From the NCBI GenBank assembly GCA_045837725.1, contig JBEWZL010000209.1:372001-436000 (forward strand): a DNA stretch of 64,000 nucleotides. The letters are read 5' to 3'. The notes under the pieces are model-generated. The model worked only from the letters and a program-made list of their open reading frames with translations. It was not told the DNA's origin and made no database searches. Below, piece by piece: positions 2,434 through 64,000 of this stretch; position 1 is the stretch's first letter, and each line of letters opens with the position of its first letter. Source of the DNA: Vermamoeba vermiformis (lineage: Eukaryota). A program made the translations under genes and the position numbers.

Positions 2434-2834
2434 AAAGGACATGACACGCTTTATTTGCAGTGAGACAGGTCAGTCTAATAACCTCTCTGTTGGTGACTGA
2501 CTTGTCTTTGCCAACATTTGAATATAAAGTCGTGACAGTGCCGTCGAACGAGCCTCATCGCCTTATTATCAGAGAAATTTCAGCAAAAATTGATCTGGAG
2601 AAAGTTTGCTATTATCCATTCGAACAAAATGTAGCTTTAGTCGGTCACTACCAAATATTCGCGATACTATGGACATTCGCATACACCGTTGAGATCGTTC
2701 TTCCATCAAGCGAGACGCAACACATTTGTCGAAATGTCACAGCTGTCATGTCAATTCGTAAGTTTCAGGGATTTATTTAACTGATATTAAAAGCGATTTC
2801 GTTAATCAGATTACAGAATCGTACTGGATGTGTT

Positions 2835-3901
2835 TCAAGCTTTTTTCTTGCTGGGTTTGCTCGGATTGAACGAGCCACTGAACCATGGAATTATACGTGA
2901 TGTATTTGCTTGATAGGACTTGTATTCGGGGTACTTCGAGTTCGAGATCTGCTCGGTCAATGTCGTCGAGCCTTGGAACAAACCAGTAAGGCACAATGCG
3001 CCAACGCCAGTCCAATTGAATAGTGGTTGATAAGATGATAAGCTAGGTTGAGTAGCAGCAATGGAAAACAAGTAGAACGACCACCATAGCGACATCTCGC
3101 CAAAAAAGTTCGGATGCCGGGAGTAACGGAACAAGCCGGTGTGAATGAAGCCAGGTACGACCTTATTATTCTTTTGGTTCTTCATTTGATGGAAGTTCCA
3201 TTGTTGCTGATCCGCGATAACTTCGATCAGCCAAAAGGTCAAAAACAGACCTGCAGCAACGTAGTCCATCGTGTTCAACGGCGTTCCGTGATTAAGCCAT
3301 GCTAAGTATATGGGAGTGACGCACCATAGAATGATAATGTTCTGAATGACGGCAATAAAAGTCGCATTCAGAATCTGGAAAAGAACAAAGCCCATCTTCT
3401 TTCTAACGATCACCCAACGGTAGTCTTCGTGCTTCCAGCCATATCCACCTTTGCGCGCGTAATTGTAGGTCAATCGTACTCCCCACAAAGTAATGCAACA
3501 AGCCATTAAAGTCATGCGCGGATCGAGTCCGTCAGATCTTCCCGAGAAAACTGGTTCTAAAACGAAGTACCACGCGTAGACCATCGGCATAATAGGCCAT
3601 AGCTTGTCCACTTGCGAGTAGTTGCCGGATACAATGGACATAACGTAGCACCAGATCATGAAAATGATGCAGATCGCGATTGCGCCTAAGAGAGGCTCGG
3701 CGTGCGTGAACCACTGCCACCCTTTAGCGACAGATATGTTGTTGATATCAAGGTGCTTGAGGTCTTCGTAGAATCGAAGAAGTAAGTCGGATACGTAAGG
3801 CCAACTTGCGCGGTCTTAAAAAATATCCGGTTAATTAATTAATACTATGATAATTATCACAAAAATATGTACTAAAGTATTGCGTAATTAGACTTACCCA
3901 T
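2835..3901 (-). CDS. DUF1295 / steroid 5-alpha-reductase-like membrane protein
   Basis: NYSQVDKLW, WGVRLTYN, EDYRW, ADQQQWNF, GLFRYSRHPNFFGE motifs. First coding exon ATGG (3901-3898) splices in frame to the exon starting at 3814. Confidence 0.9.
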
Positions 3902-4274
3902 CGATTTTCTGGTTATTGAATTCAAGCAAAACTTTTTGACCGGTCAAATCCAAGTAAAACGAAATTATCTGCGTTTATGACGACTGTTGTGGTCAACTTG
4001 CCAAATATTGAATGTATTAGCAGACATTTTCGTTGCAGAAACTGAAGTTCGGAAACGGAGTTGTGGTTTCTCCTCGATAATTCGAGAACAAAAAATCCAT
4101 CCATTTTGCAAAGCTAATTTAGCAAAAATAAGTCATAGTAACATACCACACGCGAATATGTTCTGTTTGTCATCAATTCCGTTGCTTTTAGAACCTTACG
4201 ATTGTTGGATCGCATCAGCCAAATTGGCGCGAAAATATTTATTTTTAATTATTAGAATAATCCAAATATGGATA

Positions 4275-4799
4275 TTACATTGTGGAATAATTGGCTCTTC
4301 GTCTTCTGCGAATAACTAGAATGACTACCACAATCAAAGTCAATCCCACGAGACCACACGCCACTCCAATTCCAATTTTAAGACCATTATTATTATTATC
4401 ACCAGCAGGAGCAATAGGTGATGAAGTTGGGCTTGCATCCGTCAAAACCACAAAGCTGGTCATGATCTCTCCGCTATCCAATTTTAAATTCGTGTTGCAG
4501 CAAGTATTAGCTGAGCATTTAATAGGATATGACATTATTACTGTTGATGCATCGCAGGTCGTGCTAGAATTAAATGTAGCTACTGTCCATTGGGTCGGAT
4601 CGGATTTGTACGTTACGAATTTAATAGCCATGAAGGGTTCTTCAAACATTTCTCCCTGAAGTGCAATGCAACCTAAGTTAGCGTAGGTCTTGCATCCATC
4701 CGAGCACGCGTTCGTGCACAGTTTTGCTTCTGGATCCGCTGCGACTACTGCAACCACCAACAAAAACAAAGGCAGTGCACACTTAATATTCATATGCAT
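4275..4799 (-). CDS. Small Cys-rich type I membrane protein
   Basis: Signal peptide, Cys-rich ectodomain, Ser/Pro stalk, TM helix, RRRRR stop-transfer and short tail NYSTM. Confidence 0.75.
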   Translation of the reverse strand: MHMNIKCALPLFLLVVAVVAADPEAKLCTNACSDGCKTYANLGCIALQGEMFEEPFMAIKFVTYKSDPTQWTVATFNSSTTCDASTVIMSYPIKCSANTCCNTNLKLDSGEIMTSFVVLTDASPTSSPIAPAGDNNNNGLKIGIGVACGLVGLTLIVVVILVIRRRRRANYSTM

Positions 4800-5152
4800 T
4801 ATAATAACGTGTGGTTGTCGTCTCGGTTGGAAGTTATTAATAAAGCGAGGAGCTGAACCGAAAGCGAACAGCTTATTTTGATAAATTTTGTGATACGCTC
4901 AAAATCAAGTTCGTTCACAACACAATAATACACAATAGGCAGTGCATCTAAGACAGTAGCTAGATGAAAACATAACGAGGTACGCATTAAAGAGAAAGGC
5001 AGATTTGCTATAATTCATTAATTATTAATTTTATGTTTTTTTTTTGAAATTCTTATTAAAAATTACAGCTCTATACATGCTACCCCAAATAGTTCGCTAC
5101 ATATTGACAAAAAATATATTTTTTTAAATATTTTGTAAGCATTATTTGCTGA

Positions 5153-6609
5153 TTACACCAACAAATTCAATACAGAGCGACGAGCAGGCGGTTGAGCTGT
5201 TGCCAACTCAGCGGGCATAGCAAATTTTGCCTCATCGGCTGCTGTGTGGCTAGTAACAGTCGGTTCCAATAAGCCACCTCGATCATCCGTGTGGTTGGAC
5301 GGGATGTAGAAGTCAGCAATTAATGGCTGAAGATCGTCTGCGACCTTTCCATTGATAGCCAATTCAGCGAGCACTTTGCCAAACATTGGAACGAATTTCA
5401 TAGCCCAACCTAAAGGTATGTTTTAATCTACGATCCACACAAAAATCAAATTTTTTTTCTTAATTACCCGCCGTGAATACGACCGCCTTGTTGTTGCTAT
5501 TTGGCACGAAGTCCAGTACGTAATTTCCGTCAGGCGTGTAATTCGTCAAACAGGTTGAGATGTTGGCATTGGTCCATTCATCGGAATTGGTATCAATGCT
5601 AGGCATGTGGCGTTCAAGCCATGCTTTAAGCATCTCTCGCTCATCCATGTCCTTCTCGTGCGCCACTTGAGCCATATCGCTACGTAGTACTTTTGGATTC
5701 GTTGAGCAGATTCGTACGTAGCCTTTCGGATCTTCAGGAAACCCGTAACGGAAGCCCAAGTCATTGGGATTTGCTGAATTAGGTTCATTAGCGAATGAGA
5801 TCCACATAGGATAATCTCTATCCTTTTGTTTTGACTTCCAGTAAAAGCTCGTCATTTCCCAGATCGTCAACTTTAGTTGGATGCCGAAATATTTCAACAA
5901 TTCATTAGTCCAGCATCCAGCGGCAATAATAAGCTTCTTTGACTTATAAACTTTGCCTACAGATGCGATTAGAATAGGTTACGTCTATTATTGGCGTACC
6001 TTTATGGTCCGTTATTTGAACAACATCTGCATCCGTCGAAATATTTGTCACTTTCGTATCAAATTGGATTTTAAGACCCGCCTTGACTGCAACAGCTTCT
6101 ACAGTCCTAAATTTATGTTAAATAATCAGCATACGATGGAAAATTGCAAAAACATACCTGCCCAGCAGCGGAACATCAATAACTCCCGCTAGCAAGTTGT
6201 TATCTTCGAGCCCCGAGTATCCTATATGAATGCACTTTCGTTAGAATGTCTAAAATAATTGCTGGATGGAAACTTGCCTGCGTAGTTCGACGGAACGTTT
6301 TGAAATCCGTAGTTTGGCAGATCTTGCCACTGAATCGTTGCAAGCGGAAACCCAGCTTGCTCGCTAACCTCTTTGGCTTTAGTAAAGTCGCCTTCAGGTC
6401 CTTCCATGGGAAGATCGCGGTCGCCAAGCCAGAGCATCTGTCAAACAAAAAATGATTGGATCTTGACTTGAGATTTTTTTTAAATTAAATTGAAACACTT
6501 ACCTGAGGGAGTAATTAATTTACTTGCACTTGGATCATGACTTTCGGCTTGCTTCTGAAGGTCTTTCCACAGATCGACAGTTTTTTGAGCTAGTTTGGCG
6601 AGATTTAAC
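5153..6609 (-). CDS. Monomeric sarcosine/pipecolate oxidase-like flavoprotein, apparently lacking its N-terminal FAD-binding exon(s); possible pseudogene
   Basis: LAQKTVDLWKDLQ, KKLIIAAGCWT, CLTNYTPDGNYVLD and GWAMKFVPMFGKVLAELA match MSOX/PIPOX motifs. No GxGxxG exon is visible upstream. Confidence 0.75.
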
Positions 6610-6810
6610 TGGCATCGAGATAGGACTTGGTTCGGTCATTTGTTGTATCTTCTTACTAATTAGAATTAAGCATTGAATTTAAGGTGGAAAAAAGTCCTGA
6701 CAGCTTGAAATCTCCGCAAAAGGAAGATTTTTTGTGTCTCGCGAAAATTGTTTTTGCTTTATTCTTCTACTAATCAATCCAATTAGGAGCACCACACGAC
6801 TACTCTTATT

Positions 6811-9800
6811 ATGGCAACTATTAGCGTTCGAGGATCGCCTTTTCATCTGCATCCACTACCGTCAGCACTCAAAACGTTAATCAAAAGCGTTGTGGCGGAG
6901 AAAAATGATAATTTGCAAAATCCTCATGCACGATCTCAATATTTAAAGCTCGTAAGTTACGCAATAGATGGTCATCAAGACAGAAATTTCTAACCTGATC
7001 TGAAGGCGCTGGTTGTTCCGACCGAAGCAGCAGAGCCACCAAAACCTAAAGTCGCTATTGTCGGTGCTGGAATAGCAGGTCTTTATGCTGCCTATATTTT
7101 ACAAGAATTAGGAATTGAATACACGATCTACGAGGCATCTCATAGGTACGAGATTAATATCTAGTTGTGAACCAAAACAAAAATTCCGCCGCTAACTTTA
7201 GCGTTTCAGAATTGGAGGTCGTATTAAGACGCACTATTTTGACGCCAAAACTTACGAGACCAAGCAAGATATCGTCCCTGCATCCGTGGCTCTGGATCCA
7301 AAGAACAACAAACCTTCTGTTGCGAATATCGTGAACAAAGGAAAAGAAGAATCTACTAACGACAAGCCCGATGTTCCTATGACCGATGGCACCGAGAAAG
7401 ATTCCGTGAGTCAGATTAAGACTCGATCTCGATCCGCTTCGCAGGCTAACTTGGACGACAAAAAACCTACCAAAAAATTAAAGAAAGGTGGTGATGACGA
7501 GCTTACTGCAACTGCTACTGAAACTCATGCCGTATCGGCAGTTTCGACGACCTACGCCGAGTTGGGTGCCATGAGACTTCCGGATGTTGAAAATCATTGG
7601 CGCGTTTTTGACTTGATTAATAGGTAAGCTCATTTCATTATCGAATACCATTCTTTCATTATATTAACATTGAAATGAAACTTAATAAAACGAAAGTATG
7701 GTTTCTTTAATAATTGTGTTCTAATTTTGTTAAGCCACGTGACTAATCCTTTATATAGAGTTGGCTTGTCAGGCAGTGTTATTCCGTTCAAAATGTCCGC
7801 TGATCACAATAACAGCTTCGTTTATATCAACAAGACTGCGATCCGCAAGAACGATGCACGATCTGACGACGTAGCGGAGTTGCAATTTCCTCAAGAAATC
7901 GTGGATCTTTGGCGAGACTATCAATCGCTGATGCACGAAGGAAAGAAATTGTCCGCAGATGATATTGTGAGCAAAATTATTCAGCCATTCATCGATGAAT
8001 TGAGCGCTGGTGATCCGACAGCGGATGTGCAATCAAAGAAACTACTCGAGCAAGATCATCATTCATTGGAGAGCTATCTAAGGGAAAAACTTCAGGCGGG
8101 TATGTTTTATATTGATGTTTTCTCGTAGAGATCGCATGTTTATTGACGGATCTATTCAGATTTTTTCATTCCCAAGGAGAAGTTGGAACCGTTTGGTCTC
8201 CTATCATTTTTGGACATTATGGCTTGTTCTACTGGCCTGCTTGAATTGTCATTGAGCGAGTTCGTGATTGACGCGTGGCAATTCTCCGGAGGTTAGTGTT
8301 TGCAAAAATTCATCGTTCAGTGAAACTCCCCAAAAACTCATCAATTTTTGCAGCTGCAAATTGGAGCACGATTAAAGGAGGAATGACGCGATTGGTCACT
8401 GATCTTGGTAGCAAGCTTCAACAGCAAGTTCACAAGGGCTGCAATGTGACCAAAGTCAACAGTATGAAATTTCAATGAAATCCAAATAACTGAGCCCTAA
8501 CGAGCTATTCCTATTTTAGTTAATGAAGCGCACAAGGTGCAACTGACGTACCTTGAAAACGAAGCTGTCAAGACGAGCGAGATATTCGATCACGTGATTG
8601 TTACAGTACCGGTGCCCGTGCTCAGACACATCCAATTCGAATCTGCGACCAAGAAAGATGTTCTCGGCTATCAGAAGCGCGAGGCAATTAGAGACTTTGG
8701 CTACGATCATTCGTGCAAGATCTTTTTGCGCTTCAAAACTCGCTGGTAAGTCAAGTTAGCGAACTCATCAGCGTATATATTACTGGTCTTGGCATTTCAC
8801 TTCAATAATTTATTTTTATAATGCGGAAAAATCTCGATTAATCTCCCGCTCAACACCAAGTTGGAGGTTAAAGTGAACGCTTTTTTTGATAAATTTTTTG
8901 TGAAACGCTCAAAATTTTCAAGTTTCTCTTAATTTTCGCTCACAAAAAAATCAAGCACACGCAAAAGACAGCTCGTCATGATTTTATTTATTTGCTCGCA
9001 GTATCGCTCGTGTCCATAGCGTCCTTTTAGGAAGAAGGGCATCAGAATTGAGTCAGATCAGTTAAACAGAGGTTACCTTTTACGCGATCTTGAGCTGTGC
9101 TTCGTTTGTGCCTTAAAAATGAAATCCTCAGTAGACTACTCGCGACTTTAAGTGTCGGAAAATTGAAAATTAGCCTACAATACACGGAATGCTTGCCTTA
9201 GGGGGCAGGGAAAACGCCCCAGTGCTCATGAACGCGTCACACAGCTGAAGACTTACTCCAACTCAATTGCACACATGGGACCAAACCATTGGGAGGCCGC
9301 GGTACCTCTCTCTGCTGATCCAGAGAAAATGGTTTGATCGGTGAGGGATCAGCTCACCAATGTGGCAACTAGTGTGACGTAGGTTGAATCCACCAAAACG
9401 GCAGATCAACTCACTCGCACCAAAGACAAGTAGATTCGCGACCGAAGCGAAACCGAGTATGAAGGGATTTCAAGTATGTTGTTAGAAAACATACCAACTT
9501 GAGACAGGCGGCAGAAACGGCAAGATCGTTGATCCAACCAACCTAAAAAAATATTTCAGTATAATGTACCGTTAGAATAATTTTTTATGCGTATTTAAGG
9601 CCAATAATTTGAATATTTAGATTTATATTCATCAAAATATCTTTTAATAATTCTGCGGAAAAACTTACAGCTACGCTGAGTTCCTGCCTGGTTACTAGAA
9701 CAACCGAAACCACGTCGTGCGTGTCGAAGCGAAGTGCTTGTAGCTCATATTATGCGCGTTTAATCGTGGTCTTCATGACAGGATTTTGATTGGTTTGACA

Positions 9801-39690: not shown

Positions 39691-43155
<3,465 letters not shown>

Positions 43156-57369: not shown

Positions 57370-59288
57370 ATGCTCGTGTTAATTTGGATTGTTTTAGCTG
57401 CCATCCTCTTGTTGGCCTATTTTCAGCAATATAATGCCGTAAGTTAATATAAGCACATTTTTAAATATTTTTAGAGAATTTTTAGACCTAGTTCAAGCTA
57501 GATGTGCACACGATCTGATCACAATTTTACTTACCTAACGTTCAGCGCCGTCAGATACCTACTATGCCCAAAATATGGCCATACATATCTTTAATAAAGA
57601 ATAAGGCATCCATGCGTCTGTTCTCGCAGTCTCTGATGAAAGAATATAATGACGCGGTCAGCTCGCAAATTTTTTGCAAATCCAGCGCTAACCAGATCTT
57701 TAGGTGTATATGGAATGGCTTGGCGGTACTACTTGCTTCCTTTTCAAACCGCAATGGATCAAACAGGTCCTTTCTGCATCGAATACTCGCGCTTTAATGA
57801 AACCAGTCGCATCCGAAGGACTCGGTAGGTTAAAAACTCACCCTTTATATATTCAACTAAATTAACATATTATATTGCAGGTATTAATGGTCTTGCTATG
57901 GTTACTGGAACGACTTGGGCGGTGCATAGAAAGCTGATCGCGCCAGCGCTTCAAGCTCGTTCACTGAAACCTTTCGAACCTATCATCGAGAGCAAAGTCC
58001 ACGTGCTGGTGAAGAGAATCGCTAATGAAATCGAAATTTCCGGAAAAGTTAGCATTAAAGAAGATCTGTACGCACTATTCAAAAAACTCAGCCTTGATAC
58101 TGTCGGAAGGATTGCTTCTGGAGAATCAATCGACTGTAAGTTATTTATATATATTTATTATTTATTAATATGATTTTTTTAGCGTTATATGATCGTCCTG
58201 ATAGTGTAGCGTTGCAAAAAGAACTCGACTTTTTGTTCGAAGAAGTTTTGAACAGATCCGTCGCTCCCATTCCTTACTGGCGTATAATGCCGTTCTTACC
58301 GTCAGCTAGACGTGTAAAATCAGGTAAATTTATTGCATAATCTTATTTATAGTCGGATCTAATTTCTGACGGATCAGTTCATAAACAACTTTGGACTATT
58401 GCCGAGCGAGCTGTCGAGCGCAAAAAAAGAGAAACTACATGCGAGGGCAAGTCTATTTTAGATATGTTATGGGAGGCTCATCTCGACAATCCTTTGGAGT
58501 TTCCTGAATCCGAAGTCGTCGAGGAAACTTTATCACTACTGTAAGCTCTTTATTATCGTTTACAAGATCGTATTATTAATGCCATATATTAGGCTTGGTG
58601 GAGCTGAGACAATTGCCAATGTTCTCGCTGCAGTGTTTTACTGTCTGGGCCAGCATCCGGAGGCCGTTACAAAGATCCGCAAAGAAATCGATGAAAAGTC
58701 TCAAGGAAAGGCTGTGCGCGTAGAAGATATTAAGCAGTATACGTACATTGATTGGGTGCTTAAAGAAGTGCTGAGAATGTATCCTGTTGCGTTTGTTGTG
58801 GATCGCATTGCGACCGAAGATATTCAACTTGGCCCGCACACAATACCTAAGGATGTAAGTAGCGTATAATACATGACGGTTATTTAATCTAACATAATGT
58901 TACTCATAGACCAAAATACTGATGCCTCCTGTCGCGATCCATTACAATCCGGAGGTTTTTTCGGATCCGTGGACTTTTAATCCAGAAAGATTTGCTAACG
59001 GCGAGCCCCAATTAGGATACTTGCCATTTGGAGGAGGGTAAGACCTATTTGATAAGAATTTACTGTCTCTAAAGCAAGATCTAACGTACGCGGTTTTTGG
59101 TTAGGCTGAGAATTTGTGTTGGCAAGACATTAAGCATGCAAATTATAATAGTTGCGATTATAGAACTCGTTAGAAGATTCAATATCTCGCACGTAACTGA
59201 AGTATCTGAAATTATGAACTCCGCCGAAGCGTTCAACCTTCGACCGCCTAATGCGAAGCTTGATATGATTGTAGAAAATGTATATTAA
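57370..59288 (+). CDS. Cytochrome P450
   Basis: N-terminal anchor, WAVHRKLI, GGAET, EVLRMYP, FNPERF, PFGGGLRICVG. Confidence 0.93.
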
Positions 59289-59552
59289 TGTAGTATAGAT
59301 TTTAAACGCGATAGATGTGTAATTTATGCATTTTAATACCACATTTTAAATTCGTCCAATGCAAGCCTTGAACTTCCCTAAGTAAGGACCGAGTTAGTTC
59401 AAATAATATTAGTAATGTTATATTATATATTAGTGGGACAGAGTGTTCATCGGCAGGAATATTTCTCAATTCTTTGAGGTCTCCTTATTTGACTTTTGGA
59501 TCACAAGACGGAACCTGAAATGTTTTCCACGTCCATTTCGTTCATTTCAACG

Positions 59553-61806
59553 ATGTATTCTCAGAGTACAGCACCTCAGAAGATTCACGTTCGGAATCTG
59601 TTCAAGATCTTCGTTCCTTTACGAGGTGAGAACAATTTCAGCGTCAAACTGAACACAACGCCGGTGTTTGGGGTTGTAGTCCACGATAAAAATGATGCAA
59701 ATATATCTTATGAATATCAGCTTCATATGCTTCTTCGAGAGCGCAGTTACACGCAAGGAATTGAAACTGAATCTGAAGCGGTTGGATGCTTCAGTTGGGC
59801 CAAAAGAAATCCTGTATTAGTGCAAACAGAACAAAATAGTAATAATATCGAAGGAATACTGCTTAGAGTGAAGGTAAATCATGGGATCTTCGATTTTCGA
59901 AAGACAAGTCGACAGTTGATCAGAATCGTTGTCAACCTGAAAGTTGGAAACCAATATGTTAGGCAAGGCACGAGTACTTTATGCAAATTATTGCCGAAAA
60001 AGCGTAAAGCAGACAAAACCAGCGAGAACACCGAAGGTAAAATCCTAAAATAATTTTTATTTATTTTAACTACCTTATTTTCCCAAATTGAACGACGGTA
60101 TACTCTAGAAACCACCAGGTGTTTCAATATTTAAAGCTGATAATTATTATTGTGTAGCGGAGATTGCGATCTCGTGGCCGGATGGGCAAACTCTCGACGC
60201 CCAACAATATCTTCCAGTGGCCCAATCAGACATTAATAATATTAGTACACATCATTTCGATTCAACTATCGAAGTTGATGAAAGCCCTGAAGTTCGTCAG
60301 TTCAGCATGACGAATCTGTTCGAACAACCTTCGTCAATGCTAATGCAAGAAGAAGTCGAAACCACTGATATTTTTACCACGCCGTAAGCATTTTACGTTG
60401 TTTCTCGATAAAACTGATCGTATGGCGACGTAGAGCAAGCGAAGAAAATGAACAGCACGATGAGCAATACATGGTACTCTACAACGGCAATGCAGAGGTT
60501 GTGGGCAACTTCAGAGCACTCAACTTCTACAAGGCATCTGATATCAATATTAAAGAGGACGTCAGATTGCTCATGGAAGGTATGTGGATAGACATTGTGA
60601 CACGCGTCTTTTTTGACACTTTGTGTTGACGCGCTGCTTATGGGCTCGTTTGTATATACTGTAGAGCATTGCTAACGGGTAGTCCTTATAGATAATAACC
60701 CACGTGACGTCCTTCTGAAGATCTCAGGAGTGTCGTACAAGTTCAAACCAGGCACAACACACTCCACTCAACGACGATTCGTTGGTTACATTGCACAACA
60801 AATCGAAAGTGTTGTTCCTGAAGCAGTTCAGTTGATCGATGGCATTCTTCATGTGGACTACGAGTCATTGATTCCCTATCTCAGTGAATCGATCAAGCAA
60901 AACTTCACTGACATTAAAGGACTCAAGTCAGACACGCAGAAGCTCGAAGCACTCTTGACCAATCTCTACGAGGAGTTTATACAAGGTGAAAGCAAAGACA
61001 AGTCAAAAGTTACATTCAAATCTAAGCTACGACCAGAAAAGTCACGTGTCAACGCAATCACAGGATTGGTCAAATCCAAGTGGCAGTGGTTTGCAGGATT
61101 GTTATTTTTAGCATTAATAGGCATCACTGTTGCGCTTAGTGTGGGTTTGGTTGCTAACTTCAGAGATCAACCAGACAAACCTGAACATGCCCCAAGTTTA
61201 CCAGATTACGGGAGTCCAGAAGGCTATTTGGAAGGCGTGGCAAGAACAGCATTAAAGACATTTTACGAATCAATGAATGGAGATAACTGGATAATCAAGA
61301 CGAACTGGATGAGCAATACTTCGGTGTGCGAATGGTACGGTGTCACATGTGAAGGACCATTTGAAGAGGAGCATGTCACGGAAGTTCGTCTATCGAATAA
61401 TAATTTGACAGGAGGATTGCTAGGACAGTATTTAATGTACAAAGTAGCGCCGTTGAAAGTTCTCGACTTGAGCAAAAACAACATTTTGTTCAGTATTCAC
61501 CAATTGTCACCGTACATCACGCACTTGAACTTGTCAGAGAATCAAATATCAACTGACATCAAAGTGTTCAATCAATTGACGTACATTAGGTCACTCAATT
61601 TGGCCCACACTCGCGTTTACGGAGATTTTCAGCTGTTACCGAGTCAATTAGTCCGATTGAAAGAGCTCAATTTGTCGCACACTTCTATAACGACTATTGC
61701 GCGGATGGATGGCGAGTACGAGATTGAAGTGTGCGATTGGCACGGGACTACTTTGCACTGTCCGATTCCTGCTTGGATCGGCAAGTGTGGCGGAACCTGC
61801 GTTTAA
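59553..61806 (+). CDS. MYRF-like membrane-tethered factor: N-terminal domain with NLS, Peptidase S74/ICA autocleavage domain, coiled coil, TM, LRR ectodomain (copy 1)
   Basis: Four in-frame exons: ...LLPKKRK; GNAEVVGNFRALNFYKA-SDINIKE; GYIAQQIESVVPEAV..VDYESLIPYLSESIKQ; TM; ALKTFYESMNGDNW...CEWYGVTC; LxLxxN repeats. An in-frame ATG also exists at 59520. Confidence 0.85.
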
Positions 61807-62150
61807 CATTATTGTAACCTTTTGAATAAATAATTCTGTATTCTTAGACACCTTATGCATATATTGGCCTTTCCTTCGGATCCGCTGGCTCAACAATGTG
61901 ATTCGAAACATGTTTCGTAAGGTTCTAAGAATGGGATGCAGATGTCGATTACTTAACCTGCGATAAATTGAGGTTGGAATGGACCACTAGAACTTAAGCC
62001 GCGAGAACAATGTTAGTATAACGAATAGAATCAAAAAATCTGCCAGCTCGCAAAATTGAAAAGTCTCGTAACAGGACTGGGATCCGTTATGTGAATCAAA
62101 TGTCCTGGCCCATCGTTAAGTTCACGAAAAAAAATCCTTTCGAAATCAAA

Positions 62151-64000
62151 ATGTATTCGCAGACAACAGCACTGCAGAAAATTCACGTTCGAAATCTGTT
62201 CAAGATCTTCGTTCCTTTACGAGGCGAGAACAATTTCAGCGTCAAACTCAATACCACACCAGTATTTGGCGTTGTAATATACGACAAAAATGATGCAAAT
62301 ATATCTTATGAATATCAGCTTCATATGCTTCTTCGAGAACGCAATTATGCGCAAGGAATCGAAACTGAATCTGAAGCGGTTGGATGCTTCAGCTGGGCCA
62401 AAAGAAATGCCGTATTATTTCAAACAGAACAAAATACAAATAATATCGAAGGAGTTATGCTCCGAGTGAAGGTAAATCATGGGATCTTCGATTTTAGAAA
62501 GACAAGTCGGCAGTTGATCAGAATTGTTGTGAACTTGCACGTTGCAAACCAATACGTCCATCAAGGCACGAGTACTTTATGCAAATTATTGCCGAAAAAA
62601 CGAAAGGCAGATAAAAGCAGCGAAAATACCGAAGGTAAGTAATTTAAAATTAACTAAATTCAAATAAAATTGCGTAGGTTACAATTAATTTGATTCATAT
62701 CTATATTATTCGAATAATAATTATTAGAAATTAATTTTCTTTGTTCAGCTGAAGTTGCGATCACGTGGCCCACGGATGAAACTCCGGAAAGCGAGCAACA
62801 CTATCCTGCAATCGATCAACCAGCCAATAATATAAGTCCATATTCCGACTCGGCTATTGAAGTCTACGAAAGTCCTGAAGTTAGTCCGATCCGCATGCCA
62901 AATCTGTTCGCACAACCTTCCTCGTCCTCGATGCTTATTCAAGAAGTAGAAATGTCTAATGTTTTTACCCAGCCGTAAGTATTATAGAATAGCATACTTA
63001 GAGGCATAATAGCTTTTAAAATATGAAACGCAGAGCGAACGACAATAATAGCGAGTGGATGGTGCTGTACAACGGCAATGCGGAAGTCGTGGGCAACTTC
63101 AGAGCACTCAACTTCTACAAGGCATCTGATATCAATATTAAAGAAGACATTAGACTGCTCATGGAAGGTTCGTTGCATTTTTAAGAACTTTTAGACGCGT
63201 GTCTTTTTGACACTTGGGTTTGACATGCGTGCACTTGTGCGCGTTAATTTTACCGTCAGAACAGAGCTAACGCGTAGTACTATTAGATCATAATCCTCGC
63301 GAGGTGATTTTGAAGATCGATGGCGTTGAATACAAGTTCAAAGACAATGTTCAGCACTCAACAAACAAACGATTCGTTGGTTACATTGCACAACAAATCG
63401 AAAGTGTTGTTCCTGAAGCAGTTCAGTTGATCGATGGCATTCTTCATGTGGACTACGAGTCATTGATTCCTTACCTCAGTGAATCGATCAAACAGAACTT
63501 CACTGACATTCAAGGCATCAAATCAGATACTCAGAAACTTGAAGCAGTGTTGAACAATCTTTACGAACAGTTCACCACAGGCGAAAGCAATGCAAAGTCA
63601 AAGACGAAGTCAAATACAAAGTCACGACCGATGAAGGAAAAGTCACGTGTCAATTCCAACACTTTGACAGGATTGGTCAAATCCAAGTGGCAGGTGTTCG
63701 CAGGATTATTGTTATTAGCGGTGATTGGCGTCACTATCGCACTTAGTATTGGCTTAGCATCAAAGTTTAGAGAACAACAGCCGGACGAAGCTAAACCGGT
63801 TCCAAGTACCTACCCGCATTACGAACCGCCAGACGCCTACGGCGAAACAGACGCAAGAACTGCATTAAAATTGTTCTATCAAACAATGAACGGAGATAAC
63901 TGGATAATTAAGACGAATTGGATGAGCAATACTTCGGTGTGTGAATGGTACGGTGTTACTTGTGACGGACCATTTGAATACGAACGCGTTACAGAAGTTC
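62151..64000 (+). CDS. MYRF-like ICA-TM-LRR protein (copy 2, runs off the window)
   Basis: Tandem paralog with the same intron positions, near-identical N-terminal and ICA domains, a TM and the LRR N-cap. Confidence 0.85.

What the first reader, a model, noticed from the sequence alone, without database searches (positions are those of the whole stretch)
59553..64000. Tandem MYRF-like self-cleaving membrane transcription-factor candidates with an LRR ectodomain
Seen: one polypeptide with a beta-rich ~150 aa N-terminal domain ending in PKKRK, an acidic linker, an ICA/Peptidase S74 domain with an intact Ser-Lys dyad (KA|SDINIK; Ser at 60537 and 63125), a coiled coil, a TM and an LRR N-cap plus LRRs. 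Established: MYRF and Dictyostelium MrfA trimerise and autocleave via this phage-tail-derived domain to release a nuclear Ndt80-type factor, and C. elegans MYRF depends on a separate LRR-TM protein, PAN-1. Inference: here a sensor LRR and releasable factor are fused into a one-component receptor-transcription factor, and the N-terminal domain is not obviously Ndt80, so it may be a different DNA-binding family.
Basis: partly seen in the sequence, partly recalled or inferred. Interest (0 to 1): 0.88.

Follow-up and report, generated by a model that had tools for sequence, protein, structure and literature searches.

The report
Amoebal self-cleaving LRR membrane factor genes
Two neighbouring amoeba genes encode membrane proteins that join an outside leucine-rich-repeat domain to a phage-type self-cutting module and a basic, DNA-binding-like inside domain, which suggests a receptor that could release its own gene regulator.

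Summary
Window 59553-64000 holds two head-to-tail, four-exon eukaryotic genes; copy 2 is cut by the window end. Each encodes a basic ~150-aa beta domain, an LLPKKRK cluster, an acidic linker, a Peptidase_S74/ICA module with the Ser-x4-Lys dyad, a coiled coil, one TM and a plant-type LRR ectodomain.

The fusion is real in relatives. Full-length 677-807-aa ORFs sit on transcript-sized contigs, including two Vermamoeba vermiformis transcripts. In metagenome loci, 18 of 18 ICA units with enough upstream DNA carry the N-domain exon.

Across paralogues the ICA is 81% identical, against 28-38% for the other parts, and the dyad is invariant in 11 of 11. A homotrimer is predicted.

No RNA reads cover these two copies in three runs, but dN/dS is 0.20.

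Verdict: it works like MYRF but is not a MYRF orthologue. Cleavage, nuclear entry and DNA binding are untested.

The parts
59553..60036 (+). Copy 1 exon 1. It encodes the basic all-beta N-domain (about residues 1-145, pI 9.8) and ends in LLPKKRKAD. The donor GTAAAA is at 60037.
   Evidence: Sequence. Splice context. AF2 model with pLDDT 82 and 12 strands. pI. dN/dS of 0.11 against copy 2.
60158..60383 (+). Copy 1 exon 2, the acidic S/T/N/Q/P-rich linker. It starts with the conserved E-x-x-[IV]-x-[IV]-x-W motif (AEIAISW). Alternative in-frame exon starts lie at 60119 and 60137.
   Evidence: The intron position matches copy 2 and paralogue exon-1 ORFs compared with their transcripts. Composition.
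60434..60579 (+). Copy 1 exon 3. It encodes the pre-cleavage strand segment YMVLYNGNAEVVGNFRALNFYKA and the start of the ICA, SDINIKED. The Ser codon is 60537-60539 and the Lys codon 60552-60554.
   Evidence: The dyad is invariant in 11 of 11 relatives. The same S-x4-K spacing as MYRF S587/K592 is in passages of PMC3742440.
60692..60905 (+). First part of copy 1 exon 4, the rest of the Peptidase_S74/ICA domain, with the FVGYIAQQ and DGILHVDYESLIPYLSESIKQN blocks.
   Evidence: Pfam PF13884 at E 5.5e-8. PDB profile match to the phage tail-fibre ICA 6f45_A at E 2.8e-4. This block is identical in protein between the two copies and nearly so across 12 copies, despite synonymous divergence.
60906..61086 (+). 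Copy 1 helical coiled-coil segment and the basic juxtamembrane stretch.
   Evidence: Heptad-like spacing of predicted trimer contacts in paralogue P0020. 3 K+R and 0 D+E in the 15 residues before the TM.
61087..61161 (+). Copy 1 single transmembrane segment, WFAGLLFLALIGITVALSVGLVANF.
   Evidence: Every one of 11 relatives has one 19-residue window with mean Kyte-Doolittle hydropathy of 2.3-3.0 at the same place.
61162..61806 (+). Copy 1 ectodomain: a spacer, the LRRNT_2 cap (about 61243-61350), LRRs (about 61453-61614), a Cys-rich C-cap (CDWHGTTLHCPIPAWIGKCGGTC) and the stop TAA at 61804-61806.
   Evidence: Pfam LRRNT_2 at 3.4e-5 and LRR_8 at 1e-8. 6 Cys and 4 N-x-S/T sequons.
62151..62634 (+). 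Copy 2 exon 1: the N-domain plus LLPKKRKAD. It is 91% identical to copy 1.
62749..62974 (+). Copy 2 exon 2: the acidic linker, starting AEVAITW.
63034..63167 (+). Copy 2 exon 3: the pre-cleavage segment and the dyad. The Ser codon is 63125-63127 and the Lys codon 63140-63142.
63287..64000 (+). Copy 2 exon 4, cut by the window end. It holds the ICA, the coiled coil, the TM (about 63688-63768) and the LRRNT_2 cap (about 63856-63966).
   Evidence: Pfam PF13884 at 5.6e-9 and LRRNT_2 at 2e-5. Gene model.

Best explanation
These are two tandem members of a multigene family of type II membrane proteins. The family is seen here only in Vermamoeba vermiformis transcripts and in unnamed environmental contigs. 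I infer that it works like MYRF/MrfA.

Proposed mechanism:
1. The protein inserts with its N-terminus in the cytosol and its LRR domain outside the cell or in the lumen.
2. The nearly invariant ICA (Peptidase_S74) module and the coiled coil after it assemble three chains.
3. The Ser-x4-Lys dyad then cuts the chain at KA|SD.
4. A trimeric fragment is released. It consists of a basic beta-sandwich domain, an LLPK(K/R)R nuclear-localisation-like cluster and an acidic disordered tail.
5. That fragment enters the nucleus and regulates transcription.
6. The variable LRR ectodomain supplies ligand specificity, or controls where and when assembly and cleavage happen.

Shown here: the architecture, its transcription as one ORF in paralogues, purifying selection, invariance of the catalytic and trimerisation residues, and a predicted trimer.

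Inferred: cleavage, nuclear entry, DNA binding, and any gating by the LRR.
For: Architecture
- establish the domain order in both window copies.

Fusion in transcripts of relatives
- Searching with exon 1 alone finds P0001 (754 aa, E 1.1e-26). P0001 carries S74 and LRR domains and lies on 2.3-2.4 kb contigs.
- 11 of the 120 listed hits to exon 4 carry PF13884 plus LRR.
- Two of these are Trinity transcripts marked as complete ORFs from the EukProt record EP00029 of Vermamoeba vermiformis.
- Some protein clusters hold both genomic exon-sized ORFs (144 aa and 436 aa, on contigs up to 659 kb) and the joined 781-aa ORF on 2.4-2.9 kb contigs.
- In metagenome loci, 18 of 18 ICA units with at least about 680 nt of upstream sequence have an N-domain exon upstream on the same strand. 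The 8 units without one all have less than 470 nt upstream (my count).

ICA module
- S254, K259 and G301-I303-A304-Q305-Q306 (P0020 numbering) are invariant in 11 of 11 members.
- ICA identity averages 81%, against 38% for the N-domain, 29% for the linker, 28% for the coiled coil and 34% for the ectodomain. This is over 28 pairs of 8 proteins.
- The 43-aa core is near-invariant, yet only 58% of codons are identical at identical residues (66 pairs). That points to selection on the protein.
- The homotrimer of P0020 residues 225-388 scored ipSAE 0.90, against 0.00 for the best of 3 controls. The runs agree in at least 93% of contacts and the partner pLDDT is at least 82.
- The tool's calibration for that mark: it was reached by 21 of 30 solved one-chain pairs and by 0 of 23 solved single chains. 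On eukaryotes it was reached by 17 of 29, but by only 1 of the 7 with no older solved relative.
- ICA trimers have been solved, so this pass may reflect likeness to them.

Topology
- There is one strong hydrophobic window in 11 of 11 members, and no comparably hydrophobic stretch in their first residues.
- Basic residues lie before the TM. Cys caps and N-x-S/T sequons lie after it.

Released part looks like a transcription factor
- The N-domain is basic (pI 9.2-9.9, net charge +3 to +9) in 9 of 10 members, followed by K(K/R)R.
- The linker has 19-24% D+E and 1-4% K+R in 8 of 8 members.
- The AF2 model of the copy 1 N-domain has pLDDT 82 and pTM 0.74.
- ESM Atlas features of the copy 1 N-domain are nearest to P53 DNA-binding clusters (0.89, 195 of 256 features shared). 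CP2 and LAG1-DNAbind appear lower in the list.

Selection
- dN/dS between the two copies is 0.20 overall and 0.11 in the N-domain.

Mechanism precedent
- In MYRF, the S587A and K592 mutants block both cleavage and nuclear entry (passages of PMC3742440).
- MrfA uses the same mechanism (abstract and passages of PMC3828593).
Against: - No experiment on any family member was found.
- The N-domain has no sequence-level link to any DNA-binding family. Pfam gives 0 families at E <= 1 for the two window exons. For the 11 members at E <= 10 it gives only two unrelated single-member hits. A PDB profile search gives 0 hits at E <= 10.
- Foldseek against the PDB found nothing at E <= 1e-3. Its best hits were Ig V-set domains with TM-score about 0.26.
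- The Atlas score is below 0.9, which the tool calls a lead only. A repeat with the most divergent paralogue's N-domain (P0012, residues 1-150) gave no usable hit.
- The two models share most of their alignment rows, so they are not fully independent.
- One paralogue (P0297, of the P0019 cluster) has an acidic N-domain (pI 6.5) and a degenerate basic cluster.
- In three RNA runs carrying the same species label, with about 13 million records read from each, no read lay on the unique parts of either window copy. The 6, 11 and 11 reads that were laid sit on the conserved ICA stretch and run on into unlike sequence, so they come from paralogues.
- The ICA profile matches phage ICAs in the PDB (6f45_A at 2.8e-4, 3gud_A at 0.16). 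No MYRF chain is among its 5 hits at E <= 10. Common descent with MYRF is therefore not shown.
- MrfA cleavage is reported to be constitutive in the ER (PMC3828593 summary), so a ligand-gated release is not implied by the precedent.
Confidence: 0.55

Rival explanations
1. The protein is cleaved and releases its N-fragment, but the fragment is not a DNA-binding factor. On this view the basic beta-sandwich is a protein- or lipid-binding signalling module, for example a cofactor, an adaptor or an inhibitor. It is released from the membrane as a trimer and may or may not act in the nucleus.
For: No DNA-binding family is detected by sequence. Generic Ig-like and transglutaminase-type sandwiches score close to the transcription-factor domains. 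The zinc-knuckle His/Cys cluster that I recall as an EBF feature is absent: there is no conserved His/Cys cluster in alignment A3. One paralogue has an acidic N-domain.
Against: The same DNA-binding domain (EBF1) ranks first in two models. The longest alignments in the lists, 110-131 residues, are to p53-like-superfamily DNA-binding domains. The N-domain is basic in 9 of 10 members, and a K(K/R)R cluster plus an acidic tail follows it. This is the order seen in MYRF, where the NLS and cleavage are needed for nuclear entry.
Confidence: 0.2
2. The ICA serves only as an assembly chaperone for a trimeric LRR surface receptor or adhesin, as it does for phage tailspikes. On this view cleavage is constitutive housekeeping and the N-terminal piece has no signalling role. 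The biology lies in the LRR trimer, for example in prey or particle recognition.
For: ICA domains are assembly chaperones in phage fibres, and the profile matches those fibres best. MrfA processing is reported as constitutive. The LRR ectodomains are diverse in sequence and repeat number (34% mean identity, 212-366 aa), as expected for recognition proteins.
Against: In phage proteins the ICA chaperones the part N-terminal to it and is itself discarded. Here the LRR lies C-terminal to the ICA, across a membrane. The N-domain is the part of the two window copies under the strongest purifying selection (dN/dS 0.11), and it is present in 18 of 18 testable loci. That would not be expected for a throw-away piece.
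Confidence: 0.15
3. The family is functional, but these two window copies are silent or decaying duplicates.
For: There is zero RNA depth on their unique parts in three RNA runs. The best hits to exon 4 are only 43% identical, so the searches returned no transcript of these two copies. Copy 1 has the shortest ectodomain of the 8 members compared, at 212 aa.
Against: Both reading frames are intact across four exons, with canonical splice sites. dN/dS is 0.20 at a dS of about 0.7. The introns are only 57-66% identical, while the N-domain is 91% identical in protein. Three runs from at most two samples cannot show that the genes are silent under all conditions.
Confidence: 0.08

Closest known systems
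MYRF (animals) and MrfA (Dictyostelium): ICA-processed membrane-tethered transcription factors
   Same: The order of parts is the same: a cytosolic N-terminal beta-sandwich domain, a basic cluster, an ICA/Peptidase_S74 module with the S-x4-K dyad and a G-x-IAQ motif, and then one TM. Here the motifs are KASDINIK and GYIAQQ. The MYRF equivalents are S587/K592 and GVIAQ (passages of PMC3742440). A trimer is predicted.
   Different: No Pfam NDT80_PhoG match is found. No MRF_C1 or MRF_C2 domains are found; instead there is a plant-type LRRNT_2 plus LRR ectodomain. The ICA profile does not reach the MYRF chains in the PDB. The family has many paralogues, often in tandem, rather than one or two genes.
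C. elegans MYRF with its separate LRR-TM partner PAN-1
   Same: An LRR ectodomain is coupled to an ICA-cleaved membrane factor. PAN-1 binds MYRF and is needed for its activity, according to the abstracts of PMC8099431 and PMC12803276 in the search listing.
   Different: Here the LRR and the cleavable factor are one polypeptide. No homology between these LRRs and PAN-1 was tested.
Phage tailspike and tail-fibre C-terminal intramolecular chaperone domains (MEROPS S74: endosialidase, phi29/GA-1 neck appendage, long tail fibre)
   Same: These are the best sequence matches of the ICA profile: 6f45_A at E 2.8e-4 and 3gud_A at 0.16. Pfam PF13884 scores above its threshold.
   Different: This is a eukaryotic, intron-containing gene. 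The ICA is internal and is followed by a TM and an ectodomain. The part upstream of the cut is a small basic domain plus a disordered acidic linker, not a fibre.
EBF/COE DNA-binding domain and other p53-like-superfamily DNA-binding domains (p53, Ndt80, MYRF, CP2/Grainyhead)
Plant-type LRR receptor-like proteins, and the Dictyostelium ComC LRR
   Same: There is an LRRNT_2 cap with the C-x-W-x-G-[IV]-x-C motif, and repeats of the L-x-G-[ST]-[IL]-P type. Pfam matches LRRNT_2, LRR_8 and LRR_ComC. Plant RLPs appear among the LRR-only hits.
   Different: The orientation is type II, with the LRR after the TM. There is no kinase. The cytosolic part is the ICA plus the N-domain.

Membership tests
MYRF/MrfA (MRF) family | NDT80/PhoG-type DNA-binding domain recognisable by sequence (Pfam PF05224) | tested here: not met
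   The two window N-exons give 0 Pfam families at E <= 1. P0001 gives none at E <= 0.1. The 11 of 11 N-domains scanned at E <= 10 gave only C2_GDE1 and DUF2883, one member each.
MYRF/MrfA (MRF) family | N-domain has the Ndt80/MYRF DNA-binding fold | tested here: inconclusive
MYRF/MrfA (MRF) family | ICA (Peptidase_S74) domain with a Ser/Lys dyad between the N-domain and the TM | tested here: met
   PF13884 scores 33.4, 36.6 and 42.9 bits against a cut-off of 22. S and K at +5 are invariant in 11 of 11 members.
MYRF/MrfA (MRF) family | MRF C-terminal domains (Pfam MRF_C1 and MRF_C2; names recalled) after the ICA and TM | tested here: not met
   The Pfam scans of the exon-4 ORFs and of P0001 list only LRR families after the S74 domain.
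MYRF/MrfA (MRF) family | Autocleavage and nuclear entry of the N-fragment | not testable with these tools
   This needs tagged expression with dyad mutants.
Peptidase_S74 / intramolecular chaperone autoprocessing domain | Profile match above the curated threshold, plus the S-x4-K dyad and the G-x-IAQ motif | tested here: met
   The PDB profile match to the phage ICA 6f45_A is E 2.8e-4.
Peptidase_S74 / intramolecular chaperone autoprocessing domain | Homotrimer formation | tested here: met
   This is a prediction only: ipSAE 0.90 against 0.00 for the best of 3 controls. It may reflect likeness to solved ICA trimers.
COE/EBF DNA-binding domain | Sequence match to the COE DNA-binding profile, and a zinc knuckle (His/Cys cluster; motif recalled) | tested here: not met
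   No Pfam hit is found. There is no conserved His/Cys cluster in alignment A3.
COE/EBF DNA-binding domain | Shared fold | tested here: inconclusive
Plant-type extracellular LRR (LRRNT_2 + LRR) | N-cap with paired Cys, plus tandem LRRs, on the non-cytosolic side of a TM | tested here: met
   LRRNT_2 scores 24.5 and 25.2 bits against a cut-off of 20.7, and LRR_8 scores 35.3 bits against 27. The position after the TM is shown. The side of the membrane is inferred from charge and Cys/sequon distribution.

The most novel reading that the evidence does not exclude
On this reading, Vermamoeba-like amoebae carry a large, diversifying repertoire of one-component receptor-transcription factors.

- Each paralogue pairs its own LRR ectodomain with its own p53-like/EBF-like DNA-binding domain.
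- Ligand binding outside controls ICA-driven trimerisation and self-cleavage inside.
- The nearly invariant ICA and coiled coil let different paralogues form mixed trimers, which would give combinatorial outputs.
- That would be an innate-immunity-like or prey-sensing system built on a phage-derived autoprotease.
- The ICA may have been captured independently of MYRF, because its profile matches phage ICAs and not MYRF chains.
Probability: 0.15. Interest if true: 0.9.

Novelty: new variant of a known kind. Interest (0 to 1): 0.72.

Why it matters
In the papers I searched, MYRF/MrfA was the only eukaryotic transcription-factor family described as released from a membrane by a phage-type self-cleaving chaperone domain.

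This family would show that the same release module has been combined with two different parts. One is a different, sequence-orphan DNA-binding-like domain. The other is an extracellular LRR recognition domain, all in one chain. The family has also been amplified into many paralogues in a free-living amoeba.

If the mechanism holds, three things follow:
- It gives a minimal, direct path from an outside ligand to the nucleus.
- It offers a natural test of the PAN-1/MYRF idea that an LRR protein controls ICA cleavage.
- It gives a new entry point to how amoebae sense bacteria or giant viruses.

It also flags a class of membrane-bound regulators that screens based on domain annotation would miss, because the N-domain has no Pfam model. 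The 2026 NAR screen (PMC13294678, passages) found only proteins annotated with NDT80.

Tried and rejected
- The one search of 1.84 billion representatives was wasted. The profile built from A1 took all 754 positions of P0001, so LRR proteins filled the 150 rows listed. It gives no information on the N-domain.
- The A3 profile against PDB sequences gave 0 hits at E <= 10.
- Foldseek against the PDB gave nothing at E <= 1e-3.
- Foldseek against viral BFVD gave one hit at 6.2e-4, with TM-score 0.28, to an uncharacterised phage protein. I do not regard it as meaningful.
- Pfam at E <= 10 on the 11 N-domains gave no DNA-binding family.
- The Atlas search with P0012 residues 1-150, named clusters only, gave no usable hit.
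- The last word-index search, with the A3 profile and longer proteins, returned only 5 known family members among 6917 candidates. It found no new architecture and no named taxon. The tool says that finding none is weak evidence.
- No whole genome is held for this window, so no genome-wide paralogue count was possible.
- No RNA holder was listed for the stretch.
- A window reference was used instead.
- One step of the PDB sequence search was not run. The question was then asked with window and locus references.
- Earlier findings of this scan gave nothing.
- **Literature.** Searches found no paper describing an S74+TM+LRR protein or this N-domain. One search for DG1062 returned only unrelated instrument part numbers. 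The Pfam family DG1062_N (PF28397), named by the Atlas, could not be followed up. Supplementary files were not consulted, so Figure S5 of PMC3742440 (the ICD alignment) was not seen.
- **Transposon or viral insert.** I considered and rejected this reading. The copies have conserved intron positions, diverged flanks (44% identity in the 300 nt upstream), and purifying selection.

Full report
**1. What is in the window**

The region is eukaryotic: coding sequence is split by short GT..AG introns, and GC content is about 40%.

Copy 1
- It starts at the ATG at 59553.
- Its exons are 59553-60036, 60158-60383, 60434-60579 and 60692-61806.
- Joined by coordinates, they give a 1971-nt CDS of 656 codons plus a stop, with no internal stop.

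Copy 2
- It starts at 62151.
- Its exons are 62151-62634, 62749-62974 and 63034-63167, then 63287 onward. The last exon runs off the window at 64000.
- 519 codons are readable, with no stop.

Exon 2 of copy 1 has three in-frame acceptors, giving exon starts at 60119, 60137 or 60158. I chose 60158 for two reasons:
- It reproduces the copy 2 junction. Copy 1 reads NTE|AEIAISW and copy 2 reads NTE|AEVAITW.
- Exon-1 ORFs called on genomic contigs of paralogues end at the same point relative to their transcripts.

A tblastn of the copy 1 protein against the whole 64-kb window finds only these two copies.

**2. Domains**

Pfam on the last-exon ORFs:
- Peptidase_S74 scores E 5.5e-8 and 5.6e-9, that is 33.4 and 36.6 bits against a cut-off of 22.
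- LRR_8 scores 1e-8.
- LRRNT_2 scores 3.4e-5 and 2e-5.

The Lys lies five residues on, within KASDINIK.

The remaining parts:
- The N-terminal exon has no Pfam family at E <= 1.
- It ends in LLPKKRKAD.
- The linker is 23% D+E and 2% K+R.
- One TM (WFAGLL...VANF, 61087-61161) follows a basic juxtamembrane stretch.
- The C-terminal 212 residues carry 6 Cys and 4 N-x-S/T sequons.

**3. Is the fusion real?**

Exon 1 alone, searched against longer proteins, finds P0001 (754 aa, E 1.1e-26, 41% identity). It was 1 hit among 265 candidates. P0001 carries S74 (E 6.2e-11) and LRR domains, and it lies on 2.3-2.4 kb contigs. Members of its 90% cluster that are only 144-157 aa or 480-492 aa long lie on contigs of 83-313 kb. 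That is the pattern expected of transcripts and their genomic exons.

Exon 4 finds 390 proteins at E <= 1e-3. Of the 120 listed, 11 carry PF13884 plus LRR; the rest are LRR-only. The complete ones among these 11 show the same order of parts as the window genes.

P0012 and P0020 are Trinity transcripts from the EukProt record EP00029 of Vermamoeba vermiformis.

Among 33 metagenome loci found with the ICA peptide, 26 are close relatives. My counts are:
- 18 of 18 ICA units with at least about 680 nt of upstream sequence have an N-domain exon upstream on the same strand.
- The 8 units without one have less than 470 nt upstream.
- Four loci (L001, L017, L025, L028) show a second family gene head-to-tail, as in the window.

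**4. Which organism, and are these copies expressed?**

No genome is held for the window.

A DNA run (X1) holds 89% of the sampled words of the stretch. Three RNA runs carry the same species label. About 13 million records were read from each RNA run and laid on 59300-64000. They give zero depth on the unique parts of both copies. The 6, 11 and 11 reads that were laid all sit on the conserved ICA stretch and run on into unlike sequence.

One such loose end (4 reads, before position 60465) translates, by my hand reading, to LVHPQEYDNN. That is the linker of P0020 just before QYMVLYNGN. So paralogues are transcribed in this organism, and it is V. vermiformis or a close relative. The window GC of about 40% is consistent with the figure I recall for that genome.

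In the DNA run, the summed word depth is 2,770-7,357 in the five bins that cover the conserved ICA-coding stretches. Most other bins read 84-300, and a few reach about 660. In all, 533 contig pieces were laid. The tool warns that this depth is not a copy number. I read it only as a sign of many similar sequences in that run.

**5. Selection and conservation**

Between the two copies, dN/dS is 0.20 over 511 codons, with dS of about 0.70. By region it is 0.11 in the N-domain, 0.34 in the linker and 0.23 in the ICA. The introns are 57-66% identical and the 5' flank 44%.

Across eight full-length members, mean pairwise identity over 28 pairs is:
- ICA: 81%
- N-domain: 38%
- Ectodomain: 34%
- Linker: 29%
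- Coiled-coil segment: 28%

The Ser, the Lys and the GYIAQQ motif are invariant in 11 of 11 members. The 43-aa ICA core is nearly invariant in 12 copies, yet only 58% of codons are identical at identical residues. The conservation is therefore mainly selection on the protein.

Copies 1 and 2 share a 102-nt identical run in the ICA, which suggests a local conversion tract.

**6. The ICA module**

A homotrimer of P0020 residues 225-388 scored ipSAE 0.90 in three runs, against 0.00 for the best of three controls. The runs agree in at least 93% of contacts, and the partner pLDDT is at least 82.

The tool's calibration for that mark:
- It was reached by 21 of 30 solved one-chain pairs and by 0 of 23 solved single chains.
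- On eukaryotes it was reached by 17 of 29, but by only 1 of the 7 with no older solved relative.

ICA trimers have been solved, so the pass shows likeness rather than proving assembly. The contact list has 3-4-3-4 spacing from residue 333 to 369, which fits a trimeric coiled coil after the ICA.

A profile of the exon-4 part of the ICA matches phage ICAs in the PDB: 6f45_A at E 2.8e-4 and 3gud_A at 0.16. No MYRF chain is among its 5 hits at E <= 10. Descent from an MRF ancestor is therefore not shown, and an independent capture is possible.

**7. The N-domain**

No sequence method finds a relative outside the family.

First model:
- The AF2 model of the copy 1 domain, built from 11 sequences, has pLDDT 82 and pTM 0.74. 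It is all-beta with 12 strands.
- Foldseek against the PDB finds nothing convincing.
- The same list holds CP2c/LSF (5.6), the MYRF DBD (5.4), Ndt80 (5.2), p53 and Cep-1 (4.9), Grhl2 (4.7) and Runx1 (4.5). Transglutaminase N-domains (6.0-6.3) and SlaA (6.0) lie between them.

Second model:
- It is of a paralogue 32% identical to copy 1 (P0328; 9 sequences; pLDDT 73).

ESM Atlas features of copy 1 are nearest to P53 DNA-binding clusters (0.89, 195 of 256 features shared), with CP2 and LAG1-DNAbind lower in the list. A repeat with P0012 gave nothing.

The domain is basic in 9 of 10 members.

Together these results point to a p53-like-superfamily, EBF-like sandwich and fit DNA binding. Every score, though, lies in the range that the tools flag as not decisive.

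**8. Mechanism and comparison**

The order of parts is: basic sandwich, K(K/R)R cluster, acidic disordered linker, ICA with its dyad, coiled coil, TM. This matches MYRF/MrfA, where:
- dyad mutants block cleavage and nuclear entry (passages of PMC3742440);
- processing is autoproteolytic (abstract and passages of PMC3828593).

The family fails two MRF membership features: the NDT80 profile and the MRF C-terminal domains. It adds an LRR ectodomain. This recalls the separate LRR-TM partner PAN-1 of C. elegans MYRF (abstract of PMC8099431).

A 2026 screen for membrane-bound regulators reports NDT80 plus 'chaperone of endosialidase' proteins in four Amoebozoa. It started from NDT80 annotation, so it could not have found this family (passages of PMC13294678).

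Five literature searches found no description of an S74+TM+LRR protein.

**9. Verdict**

I file it as a new variant of a known kind. It works like MYRF with moderate confidence (0.55), but it is not an MRF family member. Cleavage, nuclear entry, DNA binding and any LRR gating remain to be tested. The two window copies themselves were not seen in RNA.

Noticed in passing
window 57829-59290 (+): A multi-exon cytochrome P450 gene lies directly upstream of copy 1. Pfam p450 scores E 2.5e-20 on the ORF at 58462-58869.
   Followed up: partly
window 2835-3815 (-): A 326-aa ORF carries a full-length DUF1295 match at E 1.1e-47.
   Followed up: partly
window 41174-42220 (-): This ORF encodes an EGF_3 domain (E 2e-8), then a Pro-rich stalk, a TM and a basic tail. 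It looks like another surface protein.
   Followed up: partly
window about 60773-60874 (cds position 938 onward; coordinates computed by hand) and the matching stretch of copy 2 near 63370-63470: There is a 102-nt run of perfect identity between the two copies inside the ICA core, although dS elsewhere is 0.5-1.1. It may be a short gene-conversion tract.
   Followed up: partly
window 60158-60180 and 62749-62771; paralogues: A short conserved motif, E-x-x-[IVL]-P/A-[IVL]-x-W, sits at the start of exon 2, just after the basic cluster, in the complete family members. Its role is unknown; it may be a linear binding motif.
   Followed up: no
window 63896 joined to 61300, in DNA run X1 (table 5c): A contig of the DNA run joins the LRRNT region of copy 2 back to the equivalent region of copy 1, with 15 other letters between. 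It is either an assembly chimera between paralogous repeats or a structural variant.
   Followed up: no
L027-L033: These seven loci carry distant S74-like matches (41-60% identity in the best tblastn segment). They have no N-domain or LRR hit. They are probably unrelated phage or bacterial ICA proteins.
   Followed up: no
P0297 / P0019 cluster: One paralogue has an acidic N-domain (pI 6.5) and a degenerate basic cluster (ILPKPRTSS). It may be a non-nuclear or regulatory variant.
   Followed up: no
ESM Atlas row 13: A cluster named 'DG1062 N-terminal domain' (PF28397), a Pfam family that no scan of the local Pfam copy here returned, scored 0.85 against the N-domain. It is a lead for a named relative that I could not test.
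   Followed up: no
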